A stretch of DNA of 51,026 nt. Origin: a virus (taxonomy: Duplodnaviria > Heunggongvirae > Uroviricota > Caudoviricetes). Positions 3,001-9,000 of the stretch are shown here, piece by piece (the stretch's first letter is position 1; every line of letters starts with the position of its first letter). The DNA lies in IMG/VR virus record IMGVR_UViG_2671180890_000005, positions 1-51,026 of that record. The stretch is one strand, 5' to 3'. Position numbers: made by a program.

Positions 3001-6000
3001 TGATGCTGGTTGCATACTGGCCGCAGAGAAACTGGAAAAAATGCTTAAACCAGGCTTTATGTCAGAAAATATTCGCCTGTCAGTTTTTGGTGTCACAGAG
3101 ATGCGTGAGGTTTACCGGGATATTATTTTCGGAGCACCTGATGGCGAACTACCCGAAGGTTTTGAATTTGTGAAGCCGGAAGGTCAGGAGGTGCTGCTGT
3201 GAAAACACCGTCTGTATCCACGATTTCCGGAGCTGCAATTGGGCGCTGGCCTTATATCCTGTCAGCATTAGGTATTAAAGTACCGTCCGCAGGACATCAT
3301 GGGGCTTGCCCTGCCTGTGGTGGAAAAGATCGTTTTCGACTGGACGATAAAGCGGGGCGAGGGACGTGGTTTTGTAATCAGTGCGGTCATGGCGATGGTC
3401 TTGATCTGGTTCGTCTGGTGACAGGAAGAAAGATAAAAGAAGTCGCCGGGATGGTATCTGAGGCGCTTGCATTACCAGAAATACAGGAGAAGCCCGCATT
3501 GCCAGCCAGGAAAAAGGCCGCAGGAAAAGAAGCGGGCGCGGAGCGATATACCAGACTCAGACAGCAGTCCTGCAATGGTGAGCCGGTCTATCTGACAAAT
3601 AAGAGCTTACACGGGTATTCACTTCCCTTGCTGTCACAGCCTTTGAATCTGGCCGGAATAACATTTTCCACCGGTTCATTACTGCTGCCTTTGACGGATA
3701 TTTCCGGGAATATTACTGGTGGCCAGCTTATCAATCCTGACGGGGATAAAAGTCTGCTGCCCGGTAGCCAGCTGTCTGGCGCATTCATTGCCCTGACCGA
3801 TATACCCGCTGAAACACCTGAACAGGTGATTATCACTGAGGGTTTTGCCACGGCGCTTACCGTCAGTCTGCTGACTGAAGGATGGATCGTGGCGGCTGTC
3901 GCTGCCACCAATTTACTGAAGGTGACGGAGCAGATCCGAAAACGCTGGCCGGAAACCCGGATCATTCTGGCCGGAGATAATGATCTGGCTGACGGCAAAG
4001 AAAACACCGGGCGTATTCAGGCAGAGAAAGCCGCCAAAGCGGTGGATGGCTGGGTAACGCTCCCTCCGGTACGCCATAAGGCTGACTGGGATGATTATCG
4101 GCAGGAAGTGGGGAAAGAACGGGCGAGAGATGCCTTTCGTGAAGAAATGACGCTGCATGGCAAAGGGCAGACCCGTTTACCAGAAGGGTTCCGGCTGACA
4201 AAAGAATATTTGTGGTACGACAAGCTGGTTAATAAGTCTGATGGTGATACAGAGATACGTAATATCAAAATTTGCAGTCCGTTGCGGGTGACGGCAATCA
4301 CCAGTGATGCTGATGGAAGTAATTACGGGCGTTTGCTGGAATGGGAAGATACCAACGGAAACAGCCGTAAATGGGCAATGCCGATGGAGATGCTGGGCGG
4401 TAGCGGGGAAGAACTGCGCCGCGTTCTGCTGGTTAACGGGCTTTCTTACATCAACATTAACGGCATGGCCAGAGCATTCCTGATGGAATATATCTCGCTG
4501 TGTAAACCGGACAGAAAAGTAACCTGTGTGAATAAAACTGGCTGGCACGGCGGGGTTTACGTTCTCCAGGATGAAGTGATAGGGCGCGAAGCCCAGTCAG
4601 TCATCTTACAAACATCGAGTGTGCAGGGGCGTGATTTTCGTGTCAGCGGCACATCAGAGGGCTGGCGTGAAAATATAGGCCGTTATTGCATAAAGAATGC
4701 CCGTCTTGCCTTTGCGGTGAGTCTGGCATTTGCTGCCCCCCTTCTGAAACTGGTTGGTATCGGCGGTGGAGGTTATCACCTCAAAGGGGAATCCACAGAC
4801 GGTAAAACCACGACGATGAAAGTGGCTGCATCAGTATGTGGTGGAACAGATTTCTGGCATACGTGGCGGGCGACGGGGAATGCCTTAGAAGGAACGGCGA
4901 GCCGCCGCAATGATGCCACGCTGATGCTGGATGAAATCCGGGAGGTTGACGGCAGGGAGGCGGGAAATATCGCTTATATGCTGGCTAACGGGCAGGGCAA
5001 AGCCAGAGCCAGAACAGATGGTTCGGTAAGGGAAACCAACCGCTGGAATCTGTTGTTTCTGTCTACCGGGGAACTGTCACTGGTAGAGCATGCGGCAAGC
5101 GCCGGGGAACGTACGTATGCCGGGGTTGAGGTCAGAATGATCCAGATCCCAAGCGATTCGGGCAAGTATGGCGTGTTTGAAGAACTTCATGGCTTCAGTA
5201 GCGGGAAAACCCTGGCTGAGCATCTTGAGCAGCACGTAGCGCATTATCATGGTGCACCATTCCGCGACTGGCTGTATTGCCTGACCGCTGATCTGCCGGA
5301 ACTGACCAGTCAGGCGAAAGCCTTATTGAAAGAGTATACCCGAAGGCTGACGCCGGAAAATGCCGGGAATCAGGTTGGCCGGGCTGTTACCCGTTTTGCT
5401 CTGGTTGCGATGGCCGGGGAGCTGGCCACAAAAGCGGGCATCACAGGATGGCCGGAGGGAGAGGCCTTTCGTGCCGCTCAAAGCTGTCTGGCTGCATGGA
5501 TGGCTGACCGGGGCCATACAGCTAATCAGGAAGATAAAGCGGCACTTGAACAGGTTCGGGACTTCATGACGCGTAATCAGTTCAGTCGGTTTGCTGACTG
5601 GAATGACGACAGGAACCGGCCTGTTTCAATGATGGGATTCAGAAAAGTCGATAAAGGAGACAACGTGACAGAGCCGGTTGTGACGTTCTACGTTCTCCCG
5701 TCAGGCTGGAAGGAGATCTGTAAGGGATTTGACTCGCGTAAGGTGGCCAGGTTGTGTGTGGACGCGGGCTGGCTGAAACCCGGTGAAGATGGCCGGACGC
5801 AAAACAGCATTCGCCTGCCAGAAATAGGGCTTAAACGTGTGTACCAGTTCAATACACAGGTACTGGGAAGCGCTGAACCTGAGTGATTATCGCGTGAGTC
5901 TTATTTTTATGAGGTAACACTGGTAACAGAGGTAACACCCGTTACTGATGCGGTTCTTCAGTGTTACCAGTCAAAAATACTGACTGGTAACAGAGGTAAC

Positions 6001-9000
6001 AAAAAATGGTGTGTTACCACGCGTTACCTCTTGATTTTGCTAACTGGTAACAGATTAAATCCTTTTAAATCAATAGCGTTACACGTGTTACCAGTGTTAC
6101 ACGTTCAGAACAAGAGGTAGGGATCCAAATCCCTTCTTCTGGCGGGCAACAGTATAGGGCACAGAACGATGAAGATGATGAGAATGTACTGCCCCACATG
6201 TCAGGCAGTAGCACGGATAGGTAAAACAAACAGGAAACACCCACAACTGTACGATGTGTACTGCTATTGCTCTAATGTGGAGTGCGGTCACTCGTTTGTG
6301 ATGAATGTTGCTTTCTCCCATTCCGTTAGTCCAAGCGCGCTGAACGGGCAGGGAAGGGTTAAAGAGCTGATTGATGCAATTCCACCCGAGGAACGGGAAA
6401 AGGCTTTAAAGTTGCTGCTGGCTGCGCAAAAGAATGGGTAAAGTATGCGTCGGGAATGGCCGATCTGTTCCCGGAACCTGAACACAGGATTTCAGTTTAT
6501 ACGGTCATAAAATTATTATTTTTCAACTGGTTATCTTCTTCATGTTTCACAAACCTTCATAAAATCACACACCTAAAATTAATTATCCATTTAATATCAT
6601 AGAGTTGCGTATTCAGGCCATAGATTCGACGGACAGTAAAACTGAAAAAAAATGAATTTCTTTTCATTCTTTTCAGTTCCTGTATCGCAGTACATCTCGA
6701 GGACTGGCACGGACTGGCGGTATCGTTTGTAAAAAATCCAGGCTGAAAATTTTTAGTGATATGAAAACCGCAGGCGGGTGCGGTGTAGTGCCGTTTTGGT
6801 CTGTCGAGCGTATATTTTCCTTTTTCACGATTGCTGCATATCAAAACGAATGTGCAGATATCAGGCCGTGTCAAACCGTGAATCGTGGAGCCTAAATGCC
6901 CAAACTACGTTTGTAGACCTAGCTAGGGGAAGGTTTCCACATATACTGCTACCTATCTTCCAGTCGCTGGTGAGGATCAAGGTAAGCTAACTGGTGAACA
7001 AGAAAAGTACTTTCGTATCTTGCGTACTCGTTTTTTTTGATTAGTATGTACAGGTAGTAACTGGATGGTGAGAATTCGTCATAACTTATCAAATTGCATG
7101 ATGTTTATAGAGTATGAGTAATGAGTCATAATAAAAAGGAATATGCTAAATTTTTCCGTCGCCCCATTTTTTCATCCTTAGCAAAAGGTAAGGATATTTC
7201 GGATTTATTTGGGAGTTTTGATTCTTACTGCTATGAAACACTGTTTTCAAACAATGATAATAATGAACATGAGATTTCACTAAGGGATTTATTTACATCA
7301 TTATATGATTTTTTGCGTCTGAATTATAGAAATGAATATGTTTATAAGACAGCACTTGTCAATAAAATAATATTCGGTAAGCACAGCCCAAAAACAAGTT
7401 CGTCGTCCATAGAGTTACCAATTAAAAACTCTATAGTGGATGTTGCGGTGTTTAATGGTACGTCTACAGCTTACGAGATTAAGACAGAGTATGATTCACC
7501 AAAAAGGTTGATTACTCAAGCCCCTGATTATTTGGATGTTTTTGATAAAGTGTATATAGTTACACATCCAGAGTATGCAAGTAAATATTGTGCTTTAAAT
7601 CTCCCCAGAGTGGGAGTTATGGTTTTGAATAAAAAAGATCAATTGAGTGTCATTAAGGAGGCAGATTCAAATATTGATTATATTAAAAGTGACAGCTTGT
7701 TTTCAGTTCTTAGAAAGGAAGAGTTCTTAGCTATAATAGAAGATTACACTTCAACTAAAATAAATATGCCTAACGGATTGGTTTATGAATATTGTAAAGA
7801 GATATTCATGCAGATGCCATTAAACATAGCAAATAAATACTTTATCTCTGCTATGAAAAAAAGATGTAACGATAAAGTTTTTTTGGATTATATTTATTCT
7901 CTTCCAGCATGTTTACGTGTTTTAGGTTATGCAACACCATTATCAAGAAAGCAAAAAGAATTCATCATGAATTTGATGGATGTAAAAATTAAAATTTGTT
8001 GATATCCTCAGGAGTTGTAAGTTATGTATAGCCCATATTTGTATGCGAGAAGTACAGAGTTATTATGCCTTAGGGACCTCGTTGCGAAGGGAGTTAGCCT
8101 AAATGGTCTGCTACCAATTTTAGAACCAATTAACGTCAATACGAGAAATTTATTAACATGTTTAAATGTTTGGAATTCTGACATAATTGTTATCCTTAAT
8201 CCTTATCAGGAAGATTTTTCTTCACACAATAACGTCTTAACTTTAAATCAAAATTTATCAAGTGTATTAACAAATAAAAATAATATCATCTCTGGATATC
8301 TTATTCAGCCCAATACAACGATTAATGATATTAATAATTGGTTGAATGCTAACTTAAATAGACGAGTTGCACTTCTATATGATAATCCATCATTATCCAA
8401 CTCTGATATTCAGTTGTTGGCGACAAATCAATTGATTAGTTATCATGTTGTTTTAAATAATAAAATGCTTCCTAATCAGTGCGCTCTTCTTCCTTTGTCG
8501 AAGTTAATTATTATTAGCGATAACTTTAGAAAGTTAGCAAAAAATGCTGATTATAATGGGCCGGAACTTTTCACGCACGCACATCAATTCGTGGGACAAA
8601 ATTACTTAGGATTTGGCGATTATACAATTACTGGCCAGGTACTAGATCTTGGAGGTGGTCAACCTTCTGCTGTTGCCGCACATTTGGTGTTCAAGAATTT
8701 ACAAGCGAATACAGTTTGGATTCGTCATTTTGTATCAAGCAACACGCAACGAGGAAGTTCAAATGTTACTGCAAAATTTTTAGATGTTTCAGATCAAATT
8801 ACAAATCTTGTTCCCCAACATCCAACCCAGTTTGGCAGCAACATTGGTCTTAACTATTATTATTACAATAGTCAACCAACTGTAAGGCATTTCCCTGGGT
8901 TGCCAAAAAACAAACAGTATCAAATTACTCACCATATTTGTTTCATGCTGGATTTAATAGCAGGTCGTATTTAATAAGCTAGCGTACCATTCCATCATTA

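What the first reader, a model, noticed from the sequence alone, without database searches (positions are those of the whole stretch)
5910..6105. GGTAACA iteron array downstream of the primase: likely satellite replication origin
About ten copies of GGTAACA/TGTTACC in both orientations, including two exact TGGTAACAGAGGTAACA units, are packed into 200 bp immediately after the primase-helicase gene. P4 alpha binds repeated short motifs of similar composition (TGTTCACC as I recall), so this is the expected cis site for the encoded primase.
Basis: partly seen in the sequence, partly recalled or inferred. Interest (0 to 1): 0.45.

Follow-up and report, generated by a model that had tools for sequence, protein, structure and literature searches.

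The report
Replication origin of a phage satellite
The repeat cluster is almost certainly the replication origin of a small phage-satellite island in the E. coli chromosome: twelve short binding sites for the primase-helicase encoded just upstream, an ordinary arrangement for satellites but an unusually clear example.

Summary
Nine exact GGTAACA copies and three degenerate ones lie in 5913-6101, starting 26 nt after the primase-helicase stop codon. About 0.01 would be expected by chance.

The window starts inside a ~10.5 kb satellite island at tRNA-Arg, present in 448 of 5426 complete E. coli genomes.

In about 100 related loci the array has one fixed layout: 12 sites, +++ - ++ | -- + ---, spacings 9,9,31,24,9,17,10,24,31,9,9. 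The site word changes by lineage: GGTAACA, GGGTAACA, GGTGTAACA, GGTGGAACA, GTGGGAACA, GGATACA and GGTkACA, and GGGGAACA in a Pseudomonas satellite.

Word switches between near-identical elements coincide with substitutions in the last ~50 residues of the primase-helicase. They do not track the upstream immunity module or the downstream ogr/delta gene.

The protein has a P4-alpha-like primase domain. Its helicase and C-terminal domain match the SaPI Rep initiator by sequence and by predicted fold. SaPI Rep binds iterons placed immediately 3' of its own gene.

This is a new member of a known kind. No experiment was possible.

The parts
3199..5886 (+). Pri-Rep initiator gene (895 aa): Zn-ribbon and Toprim primase domain (aa 1-317), DUF927 helicase (aa 331-614), C-terminal domain (aa ~650-895)
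   Evidence: Pfam hits Zn_Ribbon_Prim, Toprim_3 and DUF927. Residues 1-317 are 38% identical to P4 alpha. The helicase part matches SaPIbov1 Rep 8tch and Cch 5dgk.
5716..5868 (+). Coding region for aa 840-890, a predicted winged-helix-like end (helix 846-855, beta-hairpin 869-884); inferred iteron-reading module
   Evidence: AF2 model of aa 640-895 has pLDDT 74. Foldseek top hits are the SaPIbov1 Rep and Cch C-terminal parts. Substitutions concentrate here only in pairs whose iteron word differs.
5893..5908 (+). Conserved leader motif CGTGAGTCTTATTTTT directly before site 1
   Evidence: Conserved across lineages with different iteron words. It moves together with the array when a gene is inserted between primase and array.
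5913..6001 (+). Left half-origin, six sites: 5913+, 5922+, 5931+, 5962-, 5986+, 5995+ (all exact GGTAACA)
5962..5992 (.). Perfect palindrome TGTTACCAGTCA-N7-TGACTGGTAACA, formed by sites 4 and 5 around an A-rich spacer
   Evidence: I8; sequence
6002..6011 (.). Centre of the dyad (AAAAATGGTG)
   Evidence: Spacing pattern 9,9,31,24,9 | 17 | 10,24,31,9,9
6012..6101 (+). Right half-origin, six sites: 6012-, 6022- (GGTAACG), 6046+, 6077- (TGTAACG), 6086-, 6095- (TGTAACA). It has the same '-- [AT] + ---' layout as P4 ori and the EcCICFT073 ori.
6048..6078 (.). Least stable duplex in the array, containing the conserved TTTAAATCAA motif; candidate melting site
   Evidence: 25-nt nearest-neighbour dG is -26.0 kcal/mol, at the 99th percentile of the window. 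GC fraction is 0.30. Motif conservation is shown.
5813..5832 (+). Left arm of a flanking inverted repeat (GCCTGCCAGAAATAGGGCTT), inside the coding sequence for the RLPEIG motif
   Evidence: function unexplained
6128..6147 (+). Right arm of the flanking inverted repeat (AATCCCTTCTTCTGGCGGGC), non-coding and conserved
   Evidence: function unexplained
6169..6441 (+). Ogr/Delta-like zinc-finger gene. It is the right-hand neighbour here but is not coupled to the array.
   Evidence: Pfam Ogr_Delta. The gene start is nearly identical in L020 and L007, which have different iteron words. Other lineages have a different gene next to the array.

Best explanation
The 5913-6101 array is the replication origin of a P4/PICI-type phage satellite integrated at tRNA-Arg. 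It has twelve 7-bp sites (core GGTAACA, extended ACTGGTAACA or AGAGGTAACA) arranged as two mirror-image halves of six: +++ - ++ | -- + ---.

Shown here:
- The array and its layout are conserved.
- The site word co-varies with the C-terminal ~50 residues of the Pri-Rep protein encoded immediately upstream.
- That protein is a homologue of the SaPI Rep initiator-helicase, fused to a P4-alpha-like Toprim primase.

Inferred:
- After satellite induction, the C-terminal winged-helix domains of Pri-Rep bind the sites.
- One hexamer assembles on each half, with six sites for six domains.
- The duplex opens at an AT-rich spacer, most likely 6048-6078.
- The helicase loads itself without DnaA. No DnaA box is present.
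- The fused primase then makes the first primers for the host polymerase.
For: Enrichment: 9 exact copies in 196 bp against about 0.014 expected.

Footprint: in 19 arrays with the same word from different genera (66% mean identity), site columns are 93% conserved and spacer columns 56%, Mann-Whitney p = 3e-21.

Architecture: the pattern +++-++--+--- with spacings 9,9,31,24,9,17,10,24,31,9,9 recurs in most of 46 loci. It also recurs, with GGGGAACA, after the separate helicase gene (32% identity) of Pseudomonas satellite phiAH14b.

Concerted word switching occurs between near-identical elements: L020 GGTAACA, L007 GGTkACA, L008 GGATACA; L009 versus L013; L016 versus L018.

Coupling to the protein: in four switch contrasts, 22 of 206 positions differ in aa 840-890 against 24 of 2043 in aa 321-839. 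In nine non-switch contrasts the figures are 3 of 460 against 47 of 4675. Position 870 differs in 5 of the 6 closest between-class pairs (three of which share L007/L008/L020), and none of 43 distinct 840-890 sequences maps to two words.

The immunity module upstream and the delta gene downstream are uncoupled from the word.

Initiator identity: phmmer hits SaPIbov1 Rep 8tch at 1.5e-13 and Cch 5dgk at 1.3e-12. The model of aa 640-895 hits the same two structures by Foldseek, E = 7e-5 and 2e-3.

Published rule: the SaPI Rep C-terminal winged helix binds 6-12 iterons immediately downstream of rep, flanking an AT-rich region (PMC9371898). Gram-negative PICIs have the same organisation, and the EcCICFT073 pri-ori segment drives plasmid replication (PMC6092414).

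The right half has the same '-- AT + ---' layout as P4 ori and the EcCICFT073 ori. There is only one cluster in the whole island and no DnaA box.
Against: - There is no experimental evidence for this element.
- The link between the C-terminal segment and the site word rests on about five independent contrasts. The hypervariable N-terminal linker also never maps to two words, although that segment is uninformative because it varies in non-switch pairs too.
- The C-terminal model has only moderate confidence (pLDDT 74, TM about 0.35 to 8tch).
- The one-hexamer-per-half idea and the melting site are inferences from counts and duplex stability only.
- In P4, the cluster downstream of alpha (crr) is an auxiliary element rather than the start site.
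Confidence: 0.85

Rival explanations
1. The array is a crr-like auxiliary cis element, or a copy-control (handcuffing) site. It binds Pri-Rep, but replication starts elsewhere.
For: In P4 the iteron cluster directly downstream of alpha is crr, and ori lies 4.5 kb away.
Against: The complete island has only one GGTAACA cluster, plus a single isolated copy inside the primase gene. The right half reproduces the P4 ori layout, not only the crr layout. In SaPIs and EcCICFT073 the cluster at this position is the origin itself.
Confidence: 0.07
2. The array is mainly a transcriptional operator that controls the downstream ogr/delta gene, or autoregulates the primase operon, and is read by some island regulator.
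For: The array sits in the 282-bp gap before ogr/delta. Repeated inverted sites are also typical of operators. No terminator-like site on the + strand separates primase and delta.
Against: The ogr/delta gene start is nearly identical in L020 and L007 although every site word differs. In several lineages a different gene follows the array. Upstream regulator and immunity modules can be completely different while the word stays the same. No sigma-70-like promoter was found on the + strand in 5700-6300. A secondary regulatory role is not excluded.
Confidence: 0.05
3. The array is a packaging (cos/pac) site or a recombination site of the satellite.
For: The island has no recognisable P2/P4 cos, so its packaging signal has not been located.
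Against: Cos and pac sites are read by the helper's terminase. They would not switch word together with the satellite's own primase C-terminus. The layout matches known origins. The integrase and the tRNA attachment site are 4 kb away.
Confidence: 0.02

Closest known systems
SaPI / PICI replication origin bound by Rep (SaPIbov1, SaPI1, SaPI5 PriRep5)
   Same: - The initiator helicase is homologous (8tch), and its C-terminal part has the same predicted fold.
- There are 6-12 short iterons immediately 3' of the initiator gene, in opposite orientations around AT-rich DNA (PMC9371898).
- Primase and Rep are fused, as in SaPI5.
   Different: - The primase domain is a P4-alpha-type Zn-ribbon/Toprim domain.
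- The sites are 7-9 bp rather than 5-6 bp.
- The layout is a strict 12-site dyad with several AT-rich spacers.
- The host is a Gram-negative bacterium, and the island uses P4-type RNA immunity.
Satellite phage P4 ori and crr (type 1 repeats TGTTCACC bound by alpha)
   Same: - The primase domain is homologous (38% identity over 325 aa).
- The site word is similar: GGTGAACA in P4 against GGTAACA here, and GGTGGAACA or GGTGTAACA in sister elements.
- The six-site layout '-- [AT] + ---' of P4 ori equals the right half here.
- Its position right after the primase gene equals that of P4 crr.
   Different: - P4 alpha has D5_N, DUF5906 and Pox_D5 domains; this protein has DUF927.
- The C-terminal domains show no detectable similarity (hhalign probability 0.1%).
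- P4 needs two separate clusters, ori and crr. This island has one cluster.
EcCICFT073 (Gram-negative PICI) pri-rep-ori replicon
   Same: - The origin lies directly downstream of pri.
- It starts with the same '-- [AT] + ---' six-site module.
- Its replication function was shown on a plasmid (PMC6092414).
   Different: - Its Pri-Rep is of the D5_N/Pox_D5 type.
- Its site word is CTGTCTACC.
- That island lacks an ogr/delta gene and has an E-type capsid gene.
Pseudomonas satellite phiAH14b
   Same: The helicase belongs to the same family (32% identity). The twelve-site layout is the same, with the word GGGGAACA, immediately after the helicase gene.
   Different: Primase and helicase are separate genes. 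The published description does not mention an origin or iterons.

Membership tests
SaPI/PICI-type origin (iterons 3' of pri/rep, read by Rep) | Array lies immediately downstream of the initiator gene | tested here: met
   The stop codon is at 5886 and the first site at 5913. The same holds in about 100 related loci. In one clade the array is displaced by a ~1.1 kb inserted gene.
SaPI/PICI-type origin (iterons 3' of pri/rep, read by Rep) | Six to twelve short iterons, at least two on each side of AT-rich DNA, pointing in opposite directions | tested here: met
   Twelve sites in the pattern +++-++|--+---. The AT-rich spacers are 5969-5985, 6002-6011, 6029-6045 and 6053-6076.
SaPI/PICI-type origin (iterons 3' of pri/rep, read by Rep) | Initiator is a Rep-family (DUF927, MCM-like) helicase with a C-terminal DNA-binding domain | tested here: met
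   Pfam DUF927 at 3.9e-91. PDB 8tch at 1.5e-13. The C-terminal model hits 8tch and 5dgk by Foldseek.
SaPI/PICI-type origin (iterons 3' of pri/rep, read by Rep) | Iteron sequence is specific to the cognate Rep | tested here: met
   Tested by covariation only. Word switches coincide with changes in aa 840-890 and with no other module.
SaPI/PICI-type origin (iterons 3' of pri/rep, read by Rep) | The rep-ori segment drives autonomous, Rep-dependent replication | not testable with these tools
   This needs a plasmid maintenance assay like the one used for EcCICFT073 (PMC6092414).
P4 ori/crr system | Octamer type 1 repeat TGTTCACC | tested here: not met
   The word here is GGTAACA / TGTTACC, one base shorter. 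Sister elements have GGTGGAACA or GGTGTAACA.
P4 ori/crr system | Alpha-type initiator: Toprim primase plus D5_N/SF3 helicase plus Pox_D5 origin-binding domain | tested here: not met
   Only the primase domain matches. Pfam finds DUF927 instead of D5_N and Pox_D5. hhalign of the C-terminal profile against the P4 alpha C-terminus gives probability 0.1%.
P4 ori/crr system | Two separated iteron clusters (ori and crr), both required in cis | tested here: not met
   The complete island has a single cluster.
Plasmid/chromosomal DnaA-dependent iteron origin | DnaA boxes next to the iterons | tested here: not met
   No TTATNCACA within one mismatch in 5850-6200.

The most novel reading that the evidence does not exclude
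The fixed 6+6 mirror layout is a loading platform for two head-to-head Pri-Rep hexamers, in which each of the six C-terminal winged helices of a ring reads one site. The rapidly switching pairs of site word and C-terminal residues (hot spot at aa 846/850/854 and 861-871, especially 870) would form a natural specificity code. That code would keep co-resident satellites from cross-firing each other's origins. The same six-site module is also used by satellites whose initiators have an unrelated helicase and binding domain (P4, EcCICFT073). This implies that the origin layout is older than, or has been convergently imposed on, two different initiator families.
Probability: 0.3. Interest if true: 0.55.

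Novelty: new member of a known kind. Interest (0 to 1): 0.36.

Why it matters
It assigns the cis-acting origin of an island carried by about 8% of complete E. coli genomes and of its relatives across Enterobacterales.

It shows that this replicon is a hybrid: a P4-type primase domain joined to a SaPI-Rep-type helicase and origin binder.

It also offers a compact natural series of initiator and origin specificity switches. Five to eleven amino-acid changes accompany a change of all twelve sites. These could be used to work out how Rep winged helices read DNA, and to build orthogonal satellite-based replicons.

The general principle, iterons after pri/rep, is already established, so a specialist would not be surprised.

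Tried and rejected
- Megablast of primase plus array against phage records found nothing.
- Rfam at gathering thresholds reports no RNA family in 5887-6168. The only hits are C4 and isrK at 2063-2308.
- A phmmer search with aa 691-895 and a profile search with aa 785-895 against PDB sequences gave nothing useful. P4 alpha's solved origin-binding domain did not appear, and hhalign against the P4 alpha C-terminus was negative. Homology of the binding domains is therefore not supported. A remote fold-level relation was not tested on the winged helix alone.
- I considered the Ash/immunity region as the site reader, because it is the other recurrently divergent segment. I rejected it because it also diverges completely between elements that share primase and site word.
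I rejected it because its gene start is nearly identical in L020 and L007 while their site words differ.
- DnaA-box and IHF-consensus searches found nothing convincing. There was one IHF-like match with a mismatch at 6024-6036.
- The idea that the flanking inverted repeat bounds a swappable 'binding domain plus iterons' cassette fails. The variable residues 846-871 lie outside (upstream of) the left arm.
- The old P4 replication papers (PMIDs 8253092 and 7635819, and PMC372931) are not held. Statements about alpha's C-terminal binding domain therefore rest on my own knowledge and the GenBank annotation.
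Full report
**1. What is in the sequence**

The ORF 3199-5886 ends at 5886 and the next ORF (Ogr/Delta-like) starts at 6169.

GGTAACA or its complement occurs 18 times in the 51-kb window, against 3.6 expected from shuffles. Nine of these lie in 5913-6092.

Allowing one or two mismatches adds sites at 6022 (GGTAACG), 6077 (TGTAACG) and 6095 (TGTAACA). An extra GTAAC at 5940 is not conserved elsewhere.

Sites 4 and 5 form a perfect 12-bp palindrome, TGTTACCAGTCA-N7-TGACTGGTAACA, at 5962-5992.

**2. Context**

The first ~10.4 kb of the window is a satellite-like island between dsdC and tRNA-Arg. The 321-bp query 5850-6170, which contains the array, matches 448 of 5426 complete E. 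coli genomes, 420 of them at 99% identity or more. Its genes, in order, are:

- an AlpA/Vis-like HTH gene (just left of the window);
- an unknown 286-aa ORF;
- a P2-family major capsid gene;
- an Ash/Icd-like ORF that contains C4 and isrK RNA matches, which is P4-type CI RNA immunity;
- two small ORFs;
- the primase-helicase, followed by the array;
- ogr/delta;
- an sce7726/sce7725 pair (P4 cII is annotated as sce7726 family in the P4 record);
- an integrase next to the tRNA.

It is therefore a relative of P4 with a different morphogenesis module.

**3. The initiator**

Residues 1-317 are 38% identical to the primase domain of P4 alpha (E = 2e-49). The rest is not alpha-like:

- P4 alpha carries D5_N, DUF5906 and Pox_D5 domains, whereas this protein carries DUF927.
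- Sequence search of the PDB finds SaPIbov1 Rep (8tch, 1.5e-13) and the SCCmec helicase Cch (5dgk, 1.3e-12).
- An AlphaFold2 model of residues 640-895 (pLDDT 74) ends in a helix-helix-beta-hairpin unit.
- The only significant Foldseek hits of that model in the PDB are the same two proteins, over about 205 columns.

According to PMC9371898, SaPI Reps are self-loading initiator helicases. Their C-terminal winged helix recognises 6-12 iterons placed immediately downstream of the rep ORF, around an AT-rich centre. PMC6092414 reports the same organisation for Gram-negative PICIs. It also shows that the EcCICFT073 pri-ori segment drives plasmid replication.

**4. Comparative evidence that the array is functional**

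I fetched 55 loci from species-representative genomes and 59 from viral contigs that encode relatives of the primase at 59-100% identity.

Among 101 loci with a full-length ORF and at least 300 nt downstream, 98 have an array in the 330 nt after the stop codon. Three do not. In L037 and L043, and also in L054 (whose primase ORF was not read at full length), an integrase-like gene of about 1.1 kb has been inserted, and the array with its leader motif follows that gene. For the third, L115, too little downstream DNA is held to tell.

The layout is fixed: 12 sites, orientations +++ - ++ | -- + ---, start-to-start spacings 9,9,31,24,9,17,10,24,31,9,9, spanning 187 bp. This is a mirror arrangement of two six-site halves.

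Among 19 arrays that use GGTAACA but come from different genera (mean identity 66%), site columns are 93% conserved and spacer columns 56% (p = 3e-21).

The same layout, with the word GGGGAACA, follows the separate helicase gene (32% identity) of Pseudomonas satellite phiAH14b. The published description of that satellite does not mention it.

**5. The word changes and the protein changes with it**

Lineages use (A/T)GGTAACA, GGGTAACA, GGTGTAACA, GGTGGAACA, GTGGGAACA, GGATACA, GGTkACA or GTACTACATGTAC.

In near-identical elements all twelve sites change together while the flanks stay 95-99% identical. Examples are L020, L007 and L008; L009 versus L013; and L016 versus L018.

In these switch pairs the DNA divergence peaks over the array and the last ~270 nt of the primase gene. 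The protein-level counts are:

| Contrast type | Differences in aa 840-890 | Differences in aa 321-839 |
|---|---|---|
| Four switch contrasts | 22 of 206 | 24 of 2043 |
| Nine non-switch contrasts of similar overall divergence | 3 of 460 | 47 of 4675 |

For example, four Xenorhabdus elements that use GGTAACA have 0 of 51 differences among themselves in aa 840-890. The GGTGTAACA element L013 differs from each of them at 4 of 51 positions.

Changed positions cluster at 846, 850 and 854 (spaced i, i+4, i+8 on the predicted helix 846-855) and at 861-871 (loop and first wing strand). Position 870 differs in five of the six closest between-class pairs, although three of those pairs share L007, L008 and L020.

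No distinct 840-890 sequence (43 of them) maps to two words, whereas identical helicase segments often do.

The upstream immunity and capsid modules can be entirely different between elements that share primase and word. The ogr/delta gene start is nearly identical in L020 and L007, whose words differ. The gene to the right of the array also varies between lineages. The array therefore belongs to the primase-helicase, and most probably to its C-terminal end.

**6. Relation to P4 and to EcCICFT073**

The P4 record annotates crr directly downstream of alpha and ori 4.5 kb away, both built of TGTTCACC.

Read with GGTGAACA as '+', P4 ori is '-- [AT-rich] + ---'. This is the layout of the right half here (6012-6101).

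The experimentally validated EcCICFT073 origin starts with the same module, using CTGTCTACC. Its Pri-Rep is of the D5_N/Pox_D5 type, like alpha.

The six-site module is thus shared by satellites with two different initiator families. The present family uses two copies of it in mirror image.

The complete island holds no second cluster, so there is no separate crr. A profile of the C-terminal 111 residues shows no similarity to the P4 alpha C-terminus. The resemblance of the site words is therefore not explained by detectable homology of the binding domains.

**7. Mechanism**

Shown: a conserved array that co-varies with its initiator and sits directly 3' of a Rep-family initiator gene.

Inferred:
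- Pri-Rep binds the twelve sites through its C-terminal domains.
- The 6+6 mirror layout suits one hexamer per half.
- The least stable duplex in the array is 6048-6078 (25-nt dG of -26.0 kcal/mol, at the 99th percentile of the window). It carries a conserved TTTAAATCAA motif and is the likeliest melting site.
- There is no DnaA box, which fits a self-loading initiator.
- The fused primase would prime synthesis.
- As single strands the region folds far better than shuffles (z = -5.5). This is expected from its dyad symmetry and is not independent evidence.

**8. Rivals**

- A crr-like auxiliary or copy-control role is possible, but there is no other cluster that could serve as ori.
- An operator role for ogr/delta does not fit the uncoupling from that gene and from the regulators. 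It could still be a secondary role.
- A packaging or recombination role does not fit co-variation with the satellite's own initiator.

**9. Verdict**

The origin-binding half of the protein is SaPI/PICI Rep-like rather than alpha-like. The position of the array matches P4 crr, while its layout matches P4 ori.

This is a new, well-resolved member of a known kind of origin. Interest is moderate, mainly for the fixed 12-site layout and the natural specificity switches.

Noticed in passing
window 5813-5832 and 6128-6147: A 20-nt inverted repeat (16 of 20 complementary; 11-nt core TTCTGGCRGGC) brackets the origin. The left arm lies in the coding sequence for the conserved RLPEIG motif of the primase. 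The right arm is a conserved non-coding block just before ogr/delta. Both arms match the core exactly in 16 fetched loci, including lineages with other iteron words. Its function is unknown.
   Followed up: partly
window 5893-5908: A conserved leader motif, CG.G.GTCTTATWTTT, lies directly before the first site in all lineages. It travels with the array when a gene is inserted after the primase (L043 9795-9815).
   Followed up: partly
window 2063-2140 and 2221-2308: Rfam isrK (68.9 bits) and C4 antisense RNA (81.1 bits) lie inside the Ash/Icd-like ORF. This is P4-type CI RNA immunity. It is the only stretch with DNA similarity to P4 (71% over 423 nt), and it is a hypervariable module among relatives.
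   Followed up: partly
window 1-1888: The island carries a P2-family major capsid gene (884-1888; Pfam Phage_cap_P2, 9.5e-67) preceded by a 286-aa ORF with no family match. It has no sid or psu. No P2/P4-type cos (4 or fewer mismatches to the 19-nt cohesive end) was found anywhere in the island, so how it is packaged is open.
   Followed up: partly
window 7121-8974: An sce7726/sce7725 gene pair lies between ogr/delta and the integrase. P4 cII is annotated as sce7726 family in the P4 record, so this corresponds to the P4 cII region. No function was examined.
   Followed up: no
L007 8710-8900: The Pectobacterium polonicum array mixes three words (GGATACA, GGTTACA, GGTGACA). They are placed almost mirror-symmetrically: sites 1 and 12, 2 and 11, 5 and 8, and 6 and 7 carry the same variant. 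This suggests the two halves evolve in concert, or that the array is an intermediate in a specificity switch.
   Followed up: no
L037, L043, L054 (about 8670-9800): In one clade (~60% identity) an integrase-like gene of about 1.1 kb is inserted between the primase stop and the origin cassette. The GTGGGAACA array follows that gene.
   Followed up: partly
L020 (primase aa 396-428): The Pectobacterium carotovorum homologue has a 33-residue in-frame deletion in the N-terminal part of the DUF927 region. It may be a defective initiator with an intact array.
   Followed up: no
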